From positions 371 to 64,370 of the forward strand of contig CAIYPD010000115.1 in assembly GCA_903928075.1 (NCBI GenBank): DNA of 64,000 nucleotides, read 5' to 3'. Numbering within the stretch: position 1 is the first letter of the stretch; each line of letters opens with the position of its first letter. The stretch comes from Candidatus Firestoneibacteriota bacterium. GTDB lineage: Bacteria; Oederibacteriota; D2-FULL-39-29. Positions 27,740 to 34,807 of this stretch are shown one piece after another. The notes beneath the pieces were generated by a model that was not told the origin of the DNA, did not search any database, and saw only the letters and a program-made list of their open reading frames with translations. The translations under genes and the position numbers were made by a program.

Positions 27740-28642
27740 ATGGCGAAAAATATAATACCTGCCTTTCCTGAGTTTTCAGGAATCTCCTGTGATTTTTACG
27801 ATGAAATCAAAGGGGAACTAAGGCTCGAGCAGCCGGAAATCTCTGAACACTCCCCGGGCTTCATTTATGGTTATCGCGAAGTATTAAAACTATCAATCTC
27901 CAGGTTGAACGGGAATATAATCTTAAGGGGTTTTTACGACGGCCACAATCTCATTGTGTCCCCTATCGGCAAAAAGAAACCCGTAGAGACTTTTACCGCT
28001 TGCATAAAGCATATTAAAGATAATTTTGGGGCAGGCCGGATAGGTGCAATACCAAAAACAACCGCTATGGAGCTTGCGGGAGCGGGCTTTAAACTCCTCG
28101 AGGACCGCGATGATTTTGATTACATTTATGATGTTAAACAACTGATTAATCTCTCCGGGGAAAAATACCATTCCAAAAAAAACCTGATAAACAATTTTAT
28201 GAAACGATACCTTTACGAGTACAGAGTTCTGGACAGCGCCATTATTCCCGCCTGCCTTACCCTTCAGGAAAAATGGTGCGACCTTAAAGACTGCAGGGAA
28301 GAAACATCAAAAAATGCGGAAGACCGGATGGTACTGGCGTTATTAAATAATTTTTCTCGCTTGCAGCTTTTCGGCGGTGCAATTCTTATCGACGGAAAAG
28401 TTCAGGCTTTTACTTTACTTGAAGAACTTAATAAAACTACAGCTTTAGCGCATGTAGAAAAGGCCAACACTGAATATAAGGGGATTTATCAGGCCATAAA
28501 TCAGTTCACGGCAGAAAAGCTTCTCTCAAAATACGAATTTGTAAACCGCGAACAGGATGTGGGCGAACCGGGTCTTCGAAAAGCCAAGCTTTCCTATAAT
28601 CCTACAGGTTTCGCGGAAAAATACTTTATAGAAGTAGTATAA
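27740..28642 (+). CDS. DUF2156-domain protein (MprF/LysX C-terminal-like acyl/aminoacyl transferase fold)
   Basis: 300 aa with an AAAGGA RBS. Motifs SGEKYHSKKNLINNF and NREQDVGEPGLRKAKLSYNP are present. Confidence 0.65.
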   Translation: MAKNIIPAFPEFSGISCDFYDEIKGELRLEQPEISEHSPGFIYGYREVLKLSISRLNGNIILRGFYDGHNLIVSPIGKKKPVETFTACIKHIKDNFGAGRIGAIPKTTAMELAGAGFKLLEDRDDFDYIYDVKQLINLSGEKYHSKKNLINNFMKRYLYEYRVLDSAIIPACLTLQEKWCDLKDCREETSKNAEDRMVLALLNNFSRLQLFGGAILIDGKVQAFTLLEELNKTTALAHVEKANTEYKGIYQAINQFTAEKLLSKYEFVNREQDVGEPGLRKAKLSYNPTGFAEKYFIEVV

Positions 28643-32077: not shown

Positions 32078-32106
32078 AATATATGTTAAAATTAAAACCG
32101 TGTCAA
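32078..32106 (-). promoter_or_regulatory. sigma70-like promoter TTGACA-17-TATATT for the Cys-rich lipoprotein gene
   Basis: On the minus strand, TTGACA is at 32106-32101 and TATATT at 32083-32078. Confidence 0.45.
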
Positions 32107-32154: not shown

Positions 32155-34734
32155 TTAACCGGCAGCCCTGGCTTGTCTATATTCCTTCTCAAGTTTCAAT
32201 GTCATAGTCTCAAGCGCAAATGTTTCTTCGGCGATTCTTCTGCCGTTTGCGCCCATTTCAAAAGCTTTATTTCTGATAACAAGGATACTTATCACTGCTT
32301 CGGAGAACTTTTTAATATCTCCGTATGAAAACACTTTTCCGTTAACCCCGTCCGTTATGAGTTCTGCGGCTACGCCGTTAGTCGCCACGACCGGTTTGCC
32401 CATGGCCATGGCCTGAATAAGACTTGTTCCCGGATCTTCAAATAAAGCGCACGAAACAATTAAATCGGCAGCGTCAACAACAGATGCAATGTCATTACGG
32501 AAGCCGGTAAATCTGAACTTGTCTTTCAAACCCAATTCCTCTATTTTAGCCTGCAGTCCCGCTTTATAGAGTTTATCCTTTTCGTCAAGCACGGCGCCTA
32601 CAAACATAAACTTGGCCTCCGGCAGGCTCCTGAGGATAAGCGGCGCGGCTTCGACAAGAGTTAACTGCCGTTTATTTTCGTTAATCCTCGCCACCAGCAC
32701 GATTACGGGTTCTTTATCAAGAAAACCGAATTCCTGACGGGCCGCTTGCCGGTATTTTCCGGGAAGCCATTCCGCTTTCAAGTCCAGGCCATTATAAATC
32801 GTAACGGTCCGTTTTGGATGGACGGGAAGCGTTTCCATAATATTCTTTCTAAATATTTCCTTTGAAGCTATGACTTTTACAACATTGGCAAACATCCAGG
32901 TATTAACAAGACCCATTTCCGCGCCGGATTTATAAGAATACTTACTTAAAATTATCGGGACCCGGTTGGCGAATCTGGACGCTAAAATAATATTTGAAAG
33001 ATCCGTTGTGGAATGCGAGTGTATTACCTGAATCCGGTATTTTAACAGTATTTTGTAGAGTTTATATATTTTAAAGGGGTTGGGGCGTATACCTATATCA
33101 ATATCATACAAAACAAAGCCTTCTTTCTCAGCCTTTTGATAGATGGTGGTACCTTTCTTTGCGGCTATTATTACCTTGTGCCCATGTTCTGCAAGTTGTT
33201 TTGAAATAGCAATGACATTCAGCTCTTTTATCTTAAAGGCGCCGGAAGAAACAATCTGCAGGATATTAAGATTACCCTGCCCTCTATTTGTTTCTCTTCT
33301 TCTTATAAGTTTTCCGACAACCCGCCCGGAAGAAGTAACAGGGAGAACCATATAGTCAAAAAGCACTCCCATCCCTTCGACGAAGCCGCCGGCAATACCC
33401 GAGCGCACCGAGCGGATAACTTTTTCCACACGCTCTTCCTGAGGTTCCAGTACTTTTTTTAGCAGTTTCATAGGAAAGGACCGCATGAACCCGCCAAGTA
33501 AAAAAATCAACTGAAAAGCACCGAAAGTATAATAGCCAAAATATCGGCCAAAATTAATATTCGCGGGACCTATGGAATCTATGAGCACGCCGGCAAGAAC
33601 AGGTCCTATAAAAGCCGTCACACTGGGAAAGAGCATATTAACAGACAAGAAATATGCCCGATCCTCTTTAGGGGCCAGTTTCAAGACAATGTTAAAAGCT
33701 CCGATATTATAACCGGCCCAGGCTATTCCGGCAATGACATATAAAACCGGGATTATAAAATAATAATTAAAAGGTGTTGTAATAAGCCAGAAAAACGGCA
33801 CTATTCCGACGACATTACCGCAAATCAGCATCACGGGCTTATTCCCGTACTTATCCGCCATCTTCCCCCAAAAAGGCGTAAGCGCGAGATTGGCCACCGT
33901 ACTTATAGTTCCAAACGCGGCTATCAGGGTATAGCTCATTTTAAGTTCTTTCAACATGAAAATATTCAGATAAACACCCATAAAAGAAAGCGCGAAGACC
34001 CAGGCCACATTAAACCAGACCAGGTTCATAAAGTTTTTTTCGGCAAACACCTTCCGGGTTTTTCTCCAAATAAGATCCAGGGAAAAATTATCTTTACTGG
34101 GTGCAGTATTCTTTGCGTCCGGCAACCGGTATAAAAGATAATAAGATATAAAACCGGCCAATGCGCCAATAACATAAATAGCCGTAAAACCAATATTCTT
34201 ATCCGGTACTTTATCCAAAAGCCTTCCTAATAATACACTGGCAAACATCGCAATAATTCCGGCAACTATAGATCTTCTGCCGAAATAAAAACCCCTTTCT
34301 TTTTCGGGGATAATATCGCTCATCCAGTTAGTCCAGGCAATAGAGGCCGGTATACTTATAACCGAAATTATAATAAAGAGCGCCACAAATAAAATTACCG
34401 GATGTGCGAAGCCGTTAAAAGCCACCAAGAAGGGAATGAGTGCCGGAATAACCCATAATAACCTGAGCGGAAATATTAGTTTGAGAGTTATTGCCTTTCT
34501 GGAAACCGCTCTTTCAATAAGATTTGAGGCAAAGGGCGCAATAATACTCGCCAGTACCGGTATTGTAGAAATTAAACCTATCTGTGTGTTGTTGGCACCA
34601 AGATGCAAAAGATAACCTGTTAAAAATAAACCGCCCTGAAATGTTACCAACCAGAGGATAATACCAAACACTATCTCCCAAAGAAAGTCATTGGAAACAC
34701 TGCCGGGCAATCCTGTATCTGTTTTGTTTTCCAT
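32155..34734 (-). CDS. fusion protein: N-terminal MFS transporter + C-terminal GT4 (GT-B) glycosyltransferase
   Basis: A single 859-aa ORF. Roughly residues 1-440 are polytopic and MFS-like. Roughly residues 480-859 carry GT4 hallmarks (HSHS..., VARINENKR, FEDPGTSLIQAMAMGKPVVAT). Confidence 0.8.
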   Translation of the reverse strand: MENKTDTGLPGSVSNDFLWEIVFGIILWLVTFQGGLFLTGYLLHLGANNTQIGLISTIPVLASIIAPFASNLIERAVSRKAITLKLIFPLRLLWVIPALIPFLVAFNGFAHPVILFVALFIIISVISIPASIAWTNWMSDIIPEKERGFYFGRRSIVAGIIAMFASVLLGRLLDKVPDKNIGFTAIYVIGALAGFISYYLLYRLPDAKNTAPSKDNFSLDLIWRKTRKVFAEKNFMNLVWFNVAWVFALSFMGVYLNIFMLKELKMSYTLIAAFGTISTVANLALTPFWGKMADKYGNKPVMLICGNVVGIVPFFWLITTPFNYYFIIPVLYVIAGIAWAGYNIGAFNIVLKLAPKEDRAYFLSVNMLFPSVTAFIGPVLAGVLIDSIGPANINFGRYFGYYTFGAFQLIFLLGGFMRSFPMKLLKKVLEPQEERVEKVIRSVRSGIAGGFVEGMGVLFDYMVLPVTSSGRVVGKLIRRRETNRGQGNLNILQIVSSGAFKIKELNVIAISKQLAEHGHKVIIAAKKGTTIYQKAEKEGFVLYDIDIGIRPNPFKIYKLYKILLKYRIQVIHSHSTTDLSNIILASRFANRVPIILSKYSYKSGAEMGLVNTWMFANVVKVIASKEIFRKNIMETLPVHPKRTVTIYNGLDLKAEWLPGKYRQAARQEFGFLDKEPVIVLVARINENKRQLTLVEAAPLILRSLPEAKFMFVGAVLDEKDKLYKAGLQAKIEELGLKDKFRFTGFRNDIASVVDAADLIVSCALFEDPGTSLIQAMAMGKPVVATNGVAAELITDGVNGKVFSYGDIKKFSEAVISILVIRNKAFEMGANGRRIAEETFALETMTLKLEKEYRQARAAG

Positions 34735-34778
34735 TTTAATACGCCTCTTACTGTTTCTCGATCAATTTTTGAATTACT

Positions 34779-34807
34779 ATTATATTGCTACAACCTTTTA
34801 TTTTCAA
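34779..34807 (-). promoter_or_regulatory. sigma70-like promoter TTGAAA-17-TATAAT for the MFS-GT4 gene
   Basis: On the minus strand, TTGAAA is at 34807-34802 and TATAAT at 34784-34779. An AAGAGG RBS precedes the ATG at 34734. Confidence 0.45.

What the first reader, a model, noticed from the sequence alone, without database searches (positions are those of the whole stretch)
32155..34734. Single-polypeptide fusion of an MFS transporter and a GT4 glycosyltransferase
One uninterrupted 859-aa ORF encodes two halves. The N-terminal half (about 440 aa) is polytopic and MFS-like. The C-terminal half is a soluble GT-B fold with GT4 hallmarks (HSHS, VARINENKR, FEDPGTSLIQAMAMGKPVVAT, an EX7E-like region).

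MFS domains fused to lipid-modifying enzymes are known; the LplT-Aas lysophospholipid transporter/acyltransferase is an example. I do not know of an MFS-GT4 fusion. By analogy, it could couple flipping or import of a (lyso)lipid or sugar acceptor to its glycosylation at the membrane.

The gene has its own TTGAAA-17-TATAAT promoter. It sits directly upstream of the Cys-rich lipoprotein gene.
Basis: partly seen in the sequence, partly recalled or inferred. Interest (0 to 1): 0.62.

Follow-up and report, generated by a model that had tools for sequence, protein, structure and literature searches.

The report
MFS permease fused to GT4 glycosyltransferase
An uncultured lake bacterium (Candidatus Firestonebacteria) really does encode one protein joining a 12-helix membrane transporter to a cytoplasmic sugar-transferring enzyme; the combination is rare, conserved and apparently undescribed, it probably couples transport of a sugar-bearing molecule to its glycosylation, and the direction of transport is unresolved.

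Summary
The 859-aa ORF at 32155-34734 (minus strand) is real. Pfam finds MFS_1 followed by Glyco_transf_4 and Glycos_transf_1. Contigs from four public metagenome runs in four studies cross the domain junction with no difference.

Eight full-length homologues (64-83% identity) keep the same architecture, all in Candidatus Firestonebacteria. Both halves are under strong purifying selection (dN/dS about 0.05-0.10).

In a search of 1.84 billion representative proteins, only this one 50%-identity cluster matched across both halves. No paper describing the architecture was found.

The fusion was made by adding a GT4 domain to the end of an existing standalone permease. The nearest standalone relatives (41-59% identity) lie beside signal-peptide-less glycosidases (GH2, a GH32/43-like protein, GH78) or beside a DHDPS-like/SDR-like gene pair. 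In two lineages a GT87 (GT-C) gene is also nearby.

Topology puts the GT4 domain in the cytoplasm.

My best reading is uptake-coupled glycosyl transfer (about 0.38). A glycolipid or glycoside synthase fused to its flippase or exporter is close behind (about 0.30).

The GT4 keeps its donor-binding Lys and the first Glu of EX7E. It has Gln in place of the second Glu and lacks the canonical N-terminal Gly-Gly loop.

Verdict: a new variant of the known transporter-enzyme fusion kind, of moderate interest.

The parts
34779..34807 (-). Sigma-70-like promoter TTGAAA-17-TATAAT
   Evidence: 11 of 12 matches. This is a consensus match only; no transcript data are available.
34744..34749 (-). Shine-Dalgarno AAGAGG, 9 nt before the ATG
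   Evidence: Read from the sequence.
32155..34734 (-). Whole CDS, 859 aa plus TAA stop: MFS-GT4 fusion protein (P0001)
   Evidence: Eight full-length homologues exist. Contigs of 4 runs are identical across it.
33463..34734 (-). MFS permease core, residues 1-424, 12 TM helices, N-in/C-in
   Evidence: Pfam MFS_1 at 112.5 bits, and MFS_2 at 44.2 bits on the half alone. Hydropathy and AF2 helices agree. K+R count is 31 in predicted cytoplasmic loops against 5 in periplasmic loops. Foldseek: YegT TM-score 0.79, NupG, MdfA, LacY.
33292..33462 (-). Conserved cytoplasmic helical tail of the permease, residues 425-481 (EPQEE...GGFVEGMGVLFDYMVLPV...)
   Evidence: It is also present in the standalone relatives P0010 and P0011, so it belongs to the permease module. 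AF2 predicts helices 436-468 and 470-481. Hydrophobicity of about 1.2 with conserved E453 and D460 makes a TM helix unlikely.
33271..33291 (-). Short basic linker, residues 482-488, at the position where the standalone permeases end
   Evidence: Residues 469-488 are the least conserved segment among the 8 fusions, with majority fraction 0.64. The standalone proteins stop here.
32755..33270 (-). GT4 N-terminal (acceptor-side) Rossmann-like domain, residues 489-660. It contains SSGAFKIKE in place of the canonical Gly-Gly loop, and IHSHS.
   Evidence: Pfam Glyco_transf_4 over 507-653. Motif comparison with 31 standalone GT4 homologues.
32158..32754 (-). GT4 C-terminal (nucleotide-sugar) domain, residues 661-859, with R683/K688, E766-X7-Q774 and G799
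   Evidence: Pfam Glycos_transf_1 over 663-833. K688, G713, E766 and G799 are invariant in 37 sequences. Alignments to HepE, PimB' and BshA.

Best explanation
SHOWN. The gene encodes a real, selectively maintained, bifunctional inner-membrane protein. It consists of a 12-TM MFS permease (N- and C-termini in the cytoplasm), a roughly 55-aa helical tail specific to this permease clade, a short basic linker, and a retaining-type GT4 (GT-B) glycosyltransferase that must sit on the cytoplasmic face. The fusion arose inside Candidatus Firestonebacteria when a GT4 domain was added at the stop codon of an existing standalone permease.

INFERRED (most likely mechanism). The permease belongs to a glycoside/sugar:H+ symporter-like subfamily and still works as an importer. 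The imported sugar-bearing molecule is released at the cytoplasmic mouth, next to the N-terminal (acceptor) domain of the tethered GT4. The GT4 then either glycosylates it from a nucleotide sugar or runs in reverse (glycoside + NDP gives NDP-sugar + aglycone). In the reverse case it would take the place of the cytoplasmic glycosidases that partner the unfused relatives. Either way, uptake is coupled to immediate chemical trapping. This is the logic of LplT-Aas and of permease/glycosidase operons, carried out with a GT4.

NOT DETERMINED. The substrate and the sugar donor are unknown.
For: - Real and intact: (identical contigs from 4 runs in 4 studies across the junction).
- Conserved: 8 full-length fusions of 855-870 aa at 64-83% identity, in Firestonebacteria MAGs from different studies.
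- Selection: dN/dS is 0.05-0.10 in each half.
- Cytoplasmic GT4: 12 TM helices, positive-inside ratio 31 to 5, and the tail is not hydrophobic enough for a 13th TM.
- Derived fusion: in the tree, a clade with 100/99 support holds the standalone P0010 and P0011 together with the two fused groups, and its sister clades are all standalone. The standalone proteins end exactly at the linker.
- Importer inference, point 1: P0011 (58% identity) lies between two propeller-like proteins and a GH32/43-like protein plus GH2, with an AraC regulator nearby.
- Importer inference, point 2: P0261 and P0262 (41-42%) lie beside GH78, esterases and a sugar-isomerase-like TIM barrel.
- Importer inference, point 3: these glycosidases have no signal peptide, so their substrates must be imported.
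- Importer inference, point 4: the syntenic standalone (L001, L018) and fused group B (L008, L017) are followed directly by a translationally coupled pair, 358 aa with a recurrent weak DHDPS-like hit and 341 aa with a recurrent weak NmrA/SDR-like hit.
- Importer inference, point 5: Pfam MFS_2, the glycoside-pentoside-hexuronide family, scores 44.2 bits (cut-off 27) on the MFS half.
- Importer inference, point 6: the best structural matches are the importers YegT and NupG (TM-score 0.76-0.79, 15-18% identity), and LacY scores 0.76.
- GT4 enzymes that act on small soluble acceptors are among the better matches: BshA at 74 bits and MshA at 58.8 bits, and BshA structures.
- TreT and sucrose synthase are GT4 enzymes that act on free sugars (PMC11046441).
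Against: - The direction of transport is inferred only from the gene neighbourhoods of relatives at 41-59% identity. The window itself has no glycosidase or catabolic partner next to the gene.
- The best NCBIfam match of the MFS half is an efflux-type family (TIGR00900, 57.8 bits), and the best PDB profile matches are the exporters NorA and QacA. All are far below any cut-off and reflect generic MFS motifs.
- The GT4 half resembles polysaccharide and glycolipid builders (stp2 101 bits, HepE, PimB') more than TreT (E = 1e-4).
- A GT87 (GT-C) gene is adjacent in two lineages, which fits an outward-directed envelope pathway better.
- The canonical Gly-Gly loop of GT4 is missing, so catalysis may be non-standard.
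- The annotations of the 358-aa and 341-aa proteins are below threshold, and the AF2 model of the 358-aa protein failed (pLDDT 39.9).
Confidence: 0.38

Rival explanations
1. Synthase fused to its flippase or exporter. The GT4 builds a glycolipid, or another amphipathic or small glycoside, on the cytoplasmic face. The fused MFS moves that product to the periplasmic side. In relatives that have a GT87 (GT-C) enzyme, that enzyme may extend it there. This would be a single-polypeptide version of YpfP + LtaA, with the domain logic of MprF.
For: - A GT87 gene (PimE-type GT-C) lies 1-3 genes downstream of the permease in L001, L002 and L018, and of the fusion in L006 and L007.
- The distant relative P0012 lies near a UDPGP gene and a TMEM260-like GT-C gene.
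- The GT half matches lipid- and polymer-building GT4s: PimB' at E = 5e-12, HepE at 5e-18, stp2 at 101 bits, and weakly MGlcDAG synthase, IagA/BgsA and GlcN-PG synthase.
- The lipid-transporting MFS proteins SPNS2 and MFSD2A are among the structural matches, with TM-scores 0.66-0.73.
- The MFS half has weak efflux-type family matches.
- Precedent: YpfP makes the glycolipid on the inner leaflet and the MFS LtaA flips it (PMC8866510).
- Earlier scan notes report GT-C::MFS fusions elsewhere. These are unverified leads.
Against: - There is no sequence match to LtaA at E up to 10.
- YpfP is not a GT4 (my own knowledge).
- The closest standalone relatives of the permease sit with cytoplasmic glycosidases, that is, they are importers.
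- GT87 is absent from the window and from L008, L009 and L015, so it is not an obligatory partner.
- No polyprenyl-phosphate sugar synthase or lipid-synthesis gene is linked.
Confidence: 0.3
2. The MFS half serves mainly as a membrane anchor or a substrate sensor. The GT4 acts on a membrane-bound acceptor, such as an undecaprenyl-linked glycan or a lipid, that does not pass through the MFS.
For: Many GT4 enzymes act at the membrane surface. The fusion places the acceptor domain within about 10 residues of the membrane-proximal tail.
Against: The MFS core is as conserved as the enzyme (majority fraction 0.82; dN/dS 0.05-0.10). It keeps the residues that are invariant in the standalone permeases: E20, W134/W137, R147, R153/R154, D294, G297. 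A mere anchor would not need these.
Confidence: 0.12
3. The GT4 domain is a non-catalytic nucleotide-sugar sensor that gates the permease. It would play the role suggested for the HEAT-repeat tails fused to more distant members of this MFS family.
For: - All fusions replace the canonical GG loop with K-[IV] and carry Gln in place of the second Glu of EX7E.
- Distant relatives carry C-terminal HEAT repeats at the same position.
Against: - The invariant donor-site residues K688, E766, G713 and G799 are kept.
- Gln at the second EX7E position also occurs in 11 of 31 standalone homologues.
- The acceptor-side N-domain is as conserved as the rest, at 0.82.
Confidence: 0.08
4. Assembly artefact: two adjacent genes were joined by a frameshift or a chimeric contig.
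For: One public gene call of the same sequence is only 509 aa (P0009). It starts at an internal TTG on a 6.9-kb contig.
Against: - Identical contigs from four runs span the junction.
- Eight diverged homologues keep one uninterrupted frame.
- P0009 is simply a truncated call.
Confidence: 0.01

Closest known systems
LplT-Aas (MFS lysophospholipid transporter fused or paired with acyltransferase/acyl-ACP synthetase; Harvat et al. 2005, doi 10.1074/jbc.M414368200, as cited)
   Same: An MFS permease is coupled to a cytoplasmic-face enzyme that chemically modifies what the permease brings in. The order is N-terminal transporter, C-terminal enzyme.
   Different: Here the enzyme is a GT4 glycosyltransferase, not an acyltransferase. 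The MFS half matches no LplT model or sequence. The substrate is probably a glycoside rather than a lysolipid.
YpfP + LtaA of Staphylococcus aureus (glycolipid synthase and MFS glycolipid flippase; PMC8866510)
   Same: A cytoplasmic glycosyltransferase works with an MFS that recognises a sugar head group. The two are genetically coupled.
   Different: They are two separate proteins. LtaA was not detected by sequence. YpfP belongs to another GT family (my own knowledge). Outward transport is not supported by the neighbourhoods of the nearest relatives.
Glycoside permease + cytoplasmic glycosidase operons (LacY-LacZ/GH2, CscB-CscA/GH32, UidB-UidA/GH2; textbook knowledge)
   Same: The standalone relatives P0011, P0261 and P0262 have exactly this arrangement, with GH2, a GH32/43-like protein and GH78 that lack signal peptides. 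LacY and the NupG/YegT importers are among the best fold matches.
   Different: In the window, the partner is a covalently fused GT-B transferase instead of a separate hydrolase.
MprF (lysyl-phosphatidylglycerol synthase fused to its flippase; my own knowledge)
   Same: One polypeptide carries an N-terminal polytopic translocator and a C-terminal cytoplasmic lipid-modifying enzyme.
   Different: The translocator is not an MFS and the enzyme is not a GT. A standalone MprF C-domain gene (LPG_synthase_C) does lie 4 kb away in the window and its relatives, but it belongs to the syntenic backbone only.
GT4 enzymes acting on soluble acceptors (BshA, MshA, TreT, sucrose synthase; PMC11046441 for TreT and SuSy)
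   Same: The same GT-B fold and Pfam families, with matching donor-site residues.
   Different: No equivalog model reaches its cut-off (best is 101 bits against 409). The Gly-Gly loop is replaced, and the second Glu of EX7E is Gln.
MFS-HEAT and NTT-HEAT transporter fusions (Major et al. 2017, PMC5381601, known to me only through earlier scan notes)
   Same: More distant members of the same MFS family carry a different cytoplasmic domain at the same C-terminal position.
   Different: That partner is a non-enzymatic solenoid. Those proteins form a separate clade and lack the conserved tail.

Membership tests
Major facilitator superfamily (Pfam PF07690 MFS_1) | Profile match above the curated cut-off | tested here: met
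   112.5 bits against 33.4; 115.7 bits on the half alone.
Major facilitator superfamily (Pfam PF07690 MFS_1) | 12 TM helices arranged 6+6 with a long central cytoplasmic loop, and both termini inside | tested here: met
   12 hydrophobic segments, a central loop at 203-235, and K+R 31 inside against 5 outside. The fold matches MFS structures at TM-score 0.7-0.79.
Major facilitator superfamily (Pfam PF07690 MFS_1) | Motif A-like G-x3-D-(R/K)-x-G-(R/K)-(R/K) in the TM2-3 and/or TM8-9 loop | tested here: met
   WGKMADKYGNKP at 289-300, with D294 and G297 invariant in 26 family members. The TM2-3 copy is degenerate (LIERAVSRK).
GPH / MFS_2 glycoside symporters (PF13347) | Profile match above the cut-off | tested here: inconclusive
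   44.2 bits against 27 on the MFS half. The match lies under a stronger MFS_1 hit, and only 4 of 26 family members match. No substrate or cation-site residues were checked.
CAZy GT4 / GT-B retaining glycosyltransferases | Glyco_transf_4 N-domain plus Glycos_transf_1 C-domain above the cut-offs | tested here: met
   49.1 and 101.9 bits.
CAZy GT4 / GT-B retaining glycosyltransferases | Donor-site R/K-x4-K and the first Glu of EX7E | tested here: met
   R683 and K688 are present. K688 and E766 are invariant in 37 aligned sequences.
CAZy GT4 / GT-B retaining glycosyltransferases | Second Glu of EX7E | tested here: not met
   Q774 in all fusions. Gln also occurs in 11 of 31 standalone homologues, so it is a natural subfamily variant.
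CAZy GT4 / GT-B retaining glycosyltransferases | N-terminal Gly-Gly loop after strand beta-1 | tested here: not met
   SSGAFK[IV]KE in all 6 fused sequences, with K-[IV] where nearly all 31 standalone homologues have xG.
CAZy GT4 / GT-B retaining glycosyltransferases | Glycosyl-transfer activity with retention of configuration | not testable with these tools
   Needs an enzyme assay.
LplT-Aas | LplT-type MFS and an acyltransferase/acyl-ACP synthetase partner | tested here: not met
   No LplT model among the NCBIfam hits. The partner is a GT4.
LtaA-type glycolipid flippase | Sequence relationship to LtaA; an amphipathic cavity | tested here: not met
   No PDB sequence hit for the single sequence at E up to 1 or for the family profile at E up to 10, and LtaA is not in the Foldseek top 50. 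The cavity chemistry was not analysed because no coordinates were available.
Any NCBIfam equivalog (BshA, MshA, stp2, EpsE, PelF, Mgs and others) | Score at or above the curated cut-off | tested here: not met
   The best is TIGR03088 at 101 bits against 409.05, and BshA at 74 against 273.7.

The most novel reading that the evidence does not exclude
The MFS half is a dedicated glycolipid flippase hard-wired to the GT4 that makes its cargo, a one-protein YpfP+LtaA. Its unfused relatives, found next to GT87 (PimE-type) genes, would be the long-sought kind of flippase that hands cytoplasmically made glycolipids to periplasmic GT-C enzymes. That step is still unassigned in, for example, phosphatidylinositol-mannoside biosynthesis (my own knowledge).
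Probability: 0.25. Interest if true: 0.8.

Novelty: new variant of a known kind. Interest (0 to 1): 0.5.

Why it matters
Natural fusions are strong genomic evidence that two activities act on the same molecule.

This fusion ties an uncharacterised MFS subfamily to glycosyl transfer. The subfamily is large: 610 representative clusters matched at E <= 1e-30, mostly through the MFS half.

It gives a compact system of one gene and one protein. With it one can test whether transport and glycosylation are mechanically coupled, in either direction.

If import is right, it would be a new form of group-translocation-like trapping that uses a GT-B enzyme. If export is right, it would be the first single-chain glycolipid synthase-flippase built on an MFS, and a lead to missing flippases that feed GT-C enzymes.

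It is also one of the few functional leads for the uncultured phylum Firestonebacteria.

Tried and rejected
I could not check the rest of the window's genome for GT87, polyprenyl-phosphate sugar synthases or paralogues.
- A PDB sequence search with the MFS half found nothing at E <= 1. The family-profile search gave only generic motif-A matches to NorA, QacA and SPNS2, which do not reveal function.
- The AF2 model of the full protein from a 15-sequence alignment was mediocre (pLDDT 66.8, pTM 0.54). It is good enough to recognise the folds but not the domain interface.
- A deeper mixed alignment (A3) was unusable because MAFFT placed the standalone GT4s on the MFS columns.
- The AF2 model of the neighbouring 358-aa protein failed (pLDDT 39.9), so I ran no fold search on it.
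- NCBIfam and PDB searches of the 358-aa and 341-aa proteins gave nothing significant.
- All 18 two-stretch hits that I tested from the exhaustive search were tandem GT4-GT4 proteins, not MFS fusions.
- The contexts of more distant MFS relatives (P0030, P0265, P0012) and of the nearest standalone GT4 (P0175) were heterogeneous and uninformative.
- No RNA run holds the gene.
- Four literature searches for MFS-glycosyltransferase fusions returned nothing relevant.
- I rejected a functional link to the sulfur/metal genes on either side. They are syntenic backbone, with separate promoter-like sites and variable insertions between them.
Full report
**1. The observation**

- The window has an uninterrupted ORF at 32155..34734 on the minus strand, ATG to TAA, 859 aa.
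- Pfam finds MFS_1 (112.5 bits, cut-off 33.4) and MFS_1_like (residues 37-391) in the first half. It finds Glyco_transf_4 (507-653) and Glycos_transf_1 (663-833) in the second half.
- The TTGAAA-17-TATAAT site is at 34807-34779 and matches 11 of 12 positions. An AAGAGG Shine-Dalgarno sequence lies 9 nt before the ATG.
- The next gene downstream is the Cys-rich YHS lipoprotein gene.

**2. It is not an artefact**

- Eleven public metagenome runs hold the gene.
- Logan contigs of X1, X5, X6 and X7, from four different studies, cover the domain junction (about 33250-33420). They show no differing letter, no indel and no joint. One X5 contig spans 31900-34036.
- Eight diverged homologues of 855-870 aa (64-83% identity) keep the same single frame.
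- Pairwise dN/dS is 0.05-0.10 for the MFS core and 0.05-0.10 for the GT4 half. dS is saturated, so these are rough values, but they clearly indicate purifying selection.
- A 509-aa public gene call of the identical sequence (P0009) is a truncated call that starts at an internal TTG.

**3. Anatomy**

- Hydropathy, the AF2 helices and the charge bias give 12 TM helices (21-424) with a central loop at 203-235. K+R counts are 31 in the predicted cytoplasmic loops and 5 in the periplasmic loops.
- After TM12 comes a strongly conserved tail of about 55 residues (EPQEE...GGFVEGMGVLFDYMVLPV), predicted helical. It is too polar for a 13th TM: hydrophobicity about 1.2, with conserved E453 and D460.
- The tail is also present in the standalone relatives, so it belongs to the permease.
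- A short basic linker follows (RRRETNRGQGN). Residues 469-488 are the least conserved segment of the protein. The linker leads straight into strand beta-1 of the GT4.
- The GT4 is therefore cytoplasmic, as a nucleotide-sugar enzyme must be. Its N-terminal (acceptor-side) domain is the one held next to the membrane.
- The full-length AF2 model is only moderate (pLDDT 66.8, pTM 0.54). I draw nothing from the domain interface.

**4. State of the GT4 half**

I aligned 6 fused GT halves with 31 standalone homologues.

- K688, G713, E766 (the first Glu of EX7E) and G799 are invariant.
- The second Glu of EX7E is Q774 in all fusions. HepE, PimB', BshA and the Rickettsia GT all have Glu at that position.
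- Gln also occurs there in 11 of the 31 standalone homologues, so it is a subfamily variant, not decay.
- The canonical Gly-Gly loop after beta-1 is replaced in every fusion by SSGAFK[IV]KE. Nearly all the standalone proteins keep the second Gly. This change is specific to the fused clade and is unexplained.
- No NCBIfam equivalog comes near its cut-off: stp2 scores 101 against 409, BshA 74, EpsE 66, MshA 59.
- The best solved relatives are HepE/Alr3699, a Rickettsia GT (7mi0), PimB' and BshA.

**5. How rare it is**

- I ran phmmer against 1.84 billion representatives (50%-identity clusters). Only one cluster, this one, aligned over residues 1-856.
- Every other top hit matched one half only.
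- I tested all 18 two-stretch hits of 600-830 aa. All were tandem GT4-GT4 proteins.
- In one genome per species (GTDB), the fusion occurs only in three Candidatus Firestonebacteria MAGs (83, 65 and 64% identity). These include a Rifle aquifer genome and lake genomes.
- Limit: fusions of unrelated MFS and GT subfamilies scoring under about 159 bits would not be in my list of 150.
- Four literature searches found no description of an MFS-GT4 protein.
- NCBI labels one homologue simply 'MFS transporter'.

**6. Origin**

- In a maximum-likelihood tree of MFS halves, a clade with 100/99 support contains four groups as an unresolved polytomy. These are standalone P0010, standalone P0011, fused group A (the window, P0002, P0003) and fused group B (P0004-8).
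- The sister clade (P0028, P0029, P0261, P0262) and everything further out is standalone or HEAT-fused.
- The standalone proteins end exactly where the linker begins.
- So a GT4 was appended to an existing permease.
- The nearest standalone GT4s are only 32-35% identical (P0175, P0033). P0175 is not next to an MFS gene.

**7. Neighbourhoods**

All Firestonebacteria loci share one backbone:

- flavodoxin
- (CoADR-rhodanese-TusA-DsrE)
- permease, with or without GT4
- a variable island
- (YHS lipoprotein)
- FKBP
- formate/nitrite transporter
- LPG_synthase_C

The variable island differs between loci:

| Locus | Permease form | Island content |
|---|---|---|
| Window, L009/L015 | fused | nothing |
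| L006/L007 | fused | 626-aa STN/secretin-N-like protein + GT87 |
| L008 | fused | 358 aa + 341 aa + AhpC |
| L017 | fused | 358 aa + 341 aa (contig ends) |
| L001/L002/L018 | standalone | 358 aa + 341 aa + GT87 |

- The 358 and 341 genes overlap by 4 nt.
- The 358-aa protein gives a recurrent sub-threshold DHDPS-family hit in three orthologues. The 341-aa protein gives a recurrent NmrA/SDR-like hit.

Outside this locus:

- Standalone P0011 (58% identity) lies after two propeller-like proteins. It is followed by a GH32/43-like protein and a GH2, with an AraC regulator nearby.
- P0261 and P0262 (41-42%) lie among homologues of the same two propeller-like proteins, an S9 esterase, a sugar-isomerase-like TIM barrel, a HEAT protein, GH78 and a GDSL esterase.
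- None of these glycosidases has a signal peptide. Their substrates must be imported, and the adjacent permease is the obvious importer.
- The contexts of more distant relatives are heterogeneous.

**8. What the MFS half resembles**

| Evidence | Result |
|---|---|
| Foldseek | YegT and NupG (nucleoside:H+ importers) first, TM-score 0.76-0.79, 15-18% identity |
| Foldseek | then MdfA, NorA and LacY (0.76), then SPNS2, sialin, AmpG and MFSD2A |
| Pfam on the half alone | MFS_2 (glycoside-pentoside-hexuronide family) 44.2 bits, cut-off 27 |
| NCBIfam | best is an efflux-type subfamily, 57.8 bits against 319.6 |
| PDB profile search | NorA and QacA through the generic motif-A region |
| Sequence searches | no match to LtaA or LplT |

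These comparisons do not settle the direction of transport.

**9. Mechanism**

Shown:
- A conserved permease with its transport residues intact is tethered to a cytoplasmic GT4 whose donor site is intact.

Inferred:
- The transported molecule and the GT4's acceptor or product are the same molecule.

Uptake-coupled glycosyl transfer, about 0.38:
- Three independent kinds of neighbourhood of close relatives are sugar-catabolic: GH2 with a GH32/43-like protein; GH78 with esterases; and a DHDPS-like/SDR-like pair.
- The fold and the Pfam affinities lean toward glycoside symporters.
- GT4 enzymes are known to glycosylate small soluble acceptors (BshA, MshA) or to act reversibly on free sugars (TreT, sucrose synthase; PMC11046441).
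- In this reading the fused GT4 takes the place of the separate glycosidase. It traps or splits the imported glycoside at the mouth of the permease.

Synthase plus flippase or exporter, about 0.30:
- GT87 is adjacent in two lineages.
- The GT half resembles PimB', HepE and EPS transferases.
- The YpfP/LtaA precedent applies (PMC8866510).
- Earlier scan notes of GT-C::MFS fusions in Actinomycetota are unverified leads in the same direction.

Other readings:
- Anchor-only, about 0.12.
- Sensor-domain, about 0.08.
- Assembly artefact, about 0.01.

**10. Comparison and novelty**

- It works like LplT-Aas or a permease/glycosidase pair (import reading), or like YpfP+LtaA or MprF (export reading). 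It is a member of none of these.
- The MFS and GT4 superfamily memberships are met.
- The second Glu of EX7E and the Gly-Gly loop are not met.
- No equivalog family is met.
- I class it as a new variant of the known kind 'transporter fused to a cytoplasmic enzyme'.
- Interest is moderate. The protein is rare, real, conserved and testable, but it is confined to one uncultured lineage and its function is inferred only from context.

Noticed in passing
window 33247-33273 (residues 496-504): In all fused proteins the canonical GT4 Gly-Gly loop is replaced by SSGAFK[IV]KE, with two lysines. Nearly all 31 standalone homologues keep the glycine. The significance is unknown; it could mean an anionic acceptor or an altered phosphate contact.
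   Followed up: partly
L001:3914-6012; L008:3918-6019; L017:10739-12840; L018:9762-11860: A translationally coupled gene pair (358 aa and 341 aa, 4-nt overlap) directly follows the permease or the fusion in three lineages. Neither protein has a significant Pfam, NCBIfam or PDB match. There are only recurrent weak DHDPS-like and NmrA/SDR-like hits. The AF2 model of the 358-aa protein failed (pLDDT 39.9).
   Followed up: partly
L018:7989-9382: In the LacPavin Firestonebacteria MAG the standalone permease matches in two different reading frames (residues 9-108 and 134-477). This is a frameshift, so either a pseudogene or an assembly error.
   Followed up: no
L004:3577-6008; L010:2020-4414; L011:2788-5190: Two adjacent proteins of about 400 aa with Kelch/beta-propeller-like features and no signal peptide are 74-81% identical between loci. 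They always sit just upstream of the standalone permease, although the permeases themselves match the window's MFS half at very different levels (58% for L004, 41-42% for L010 and L011). Their function is unknown.
   Followed up: no
L011:9711-10697 (also L010:9880-10866): A standalone HEAT_2 protein (328 aa) lies two genes after the standalone permease. More distant members of the MFS family carry HEAT repeats fused at their C-terminus (P0014, P0263, P0265 and others). This is a Rosetta-stone hint that the permease family works with HEAT-repeat partners.
   Followed up: no
L006:10730-12610: A 626-aa protein with STN and weak Secretin_N matches is inserted between the fusion gene and GT87 in one lineage only. 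It starts with GTG and has no obvious signal peptide at the called start.
   Followed up: no
window 32078-32106 (minus strand): A TTGACA-17-TATATT site (11 of 12) lies in the 136-nt spacer before the YHS lipoprotein gene. This suggests that gene is transcribed on its own and not with the fusion gene.
   Followed up: partly
window 33258-33280 (minus strand): An 8-bp-stem hairpin (GCAGGGTAATCTTAATATCCTGC) lies exactly on the MFS/GT4 junction codons. The count of terminator-like sites in the region is not above the shuffled expectation (6 against 4.6), so it may be chance or a relic of the former gene end.
   Followed up: no
window 27740-28642 (+), and L001, L006, L008, L009, L015, L018: A standalone LPG_synthase_C (MprF C-domain-like) gene is a constant member of the syntenic backbone about 4 kb from the permease gene, on the opposite strand. 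No flippase domain is attached to it.
   Followed up: partly
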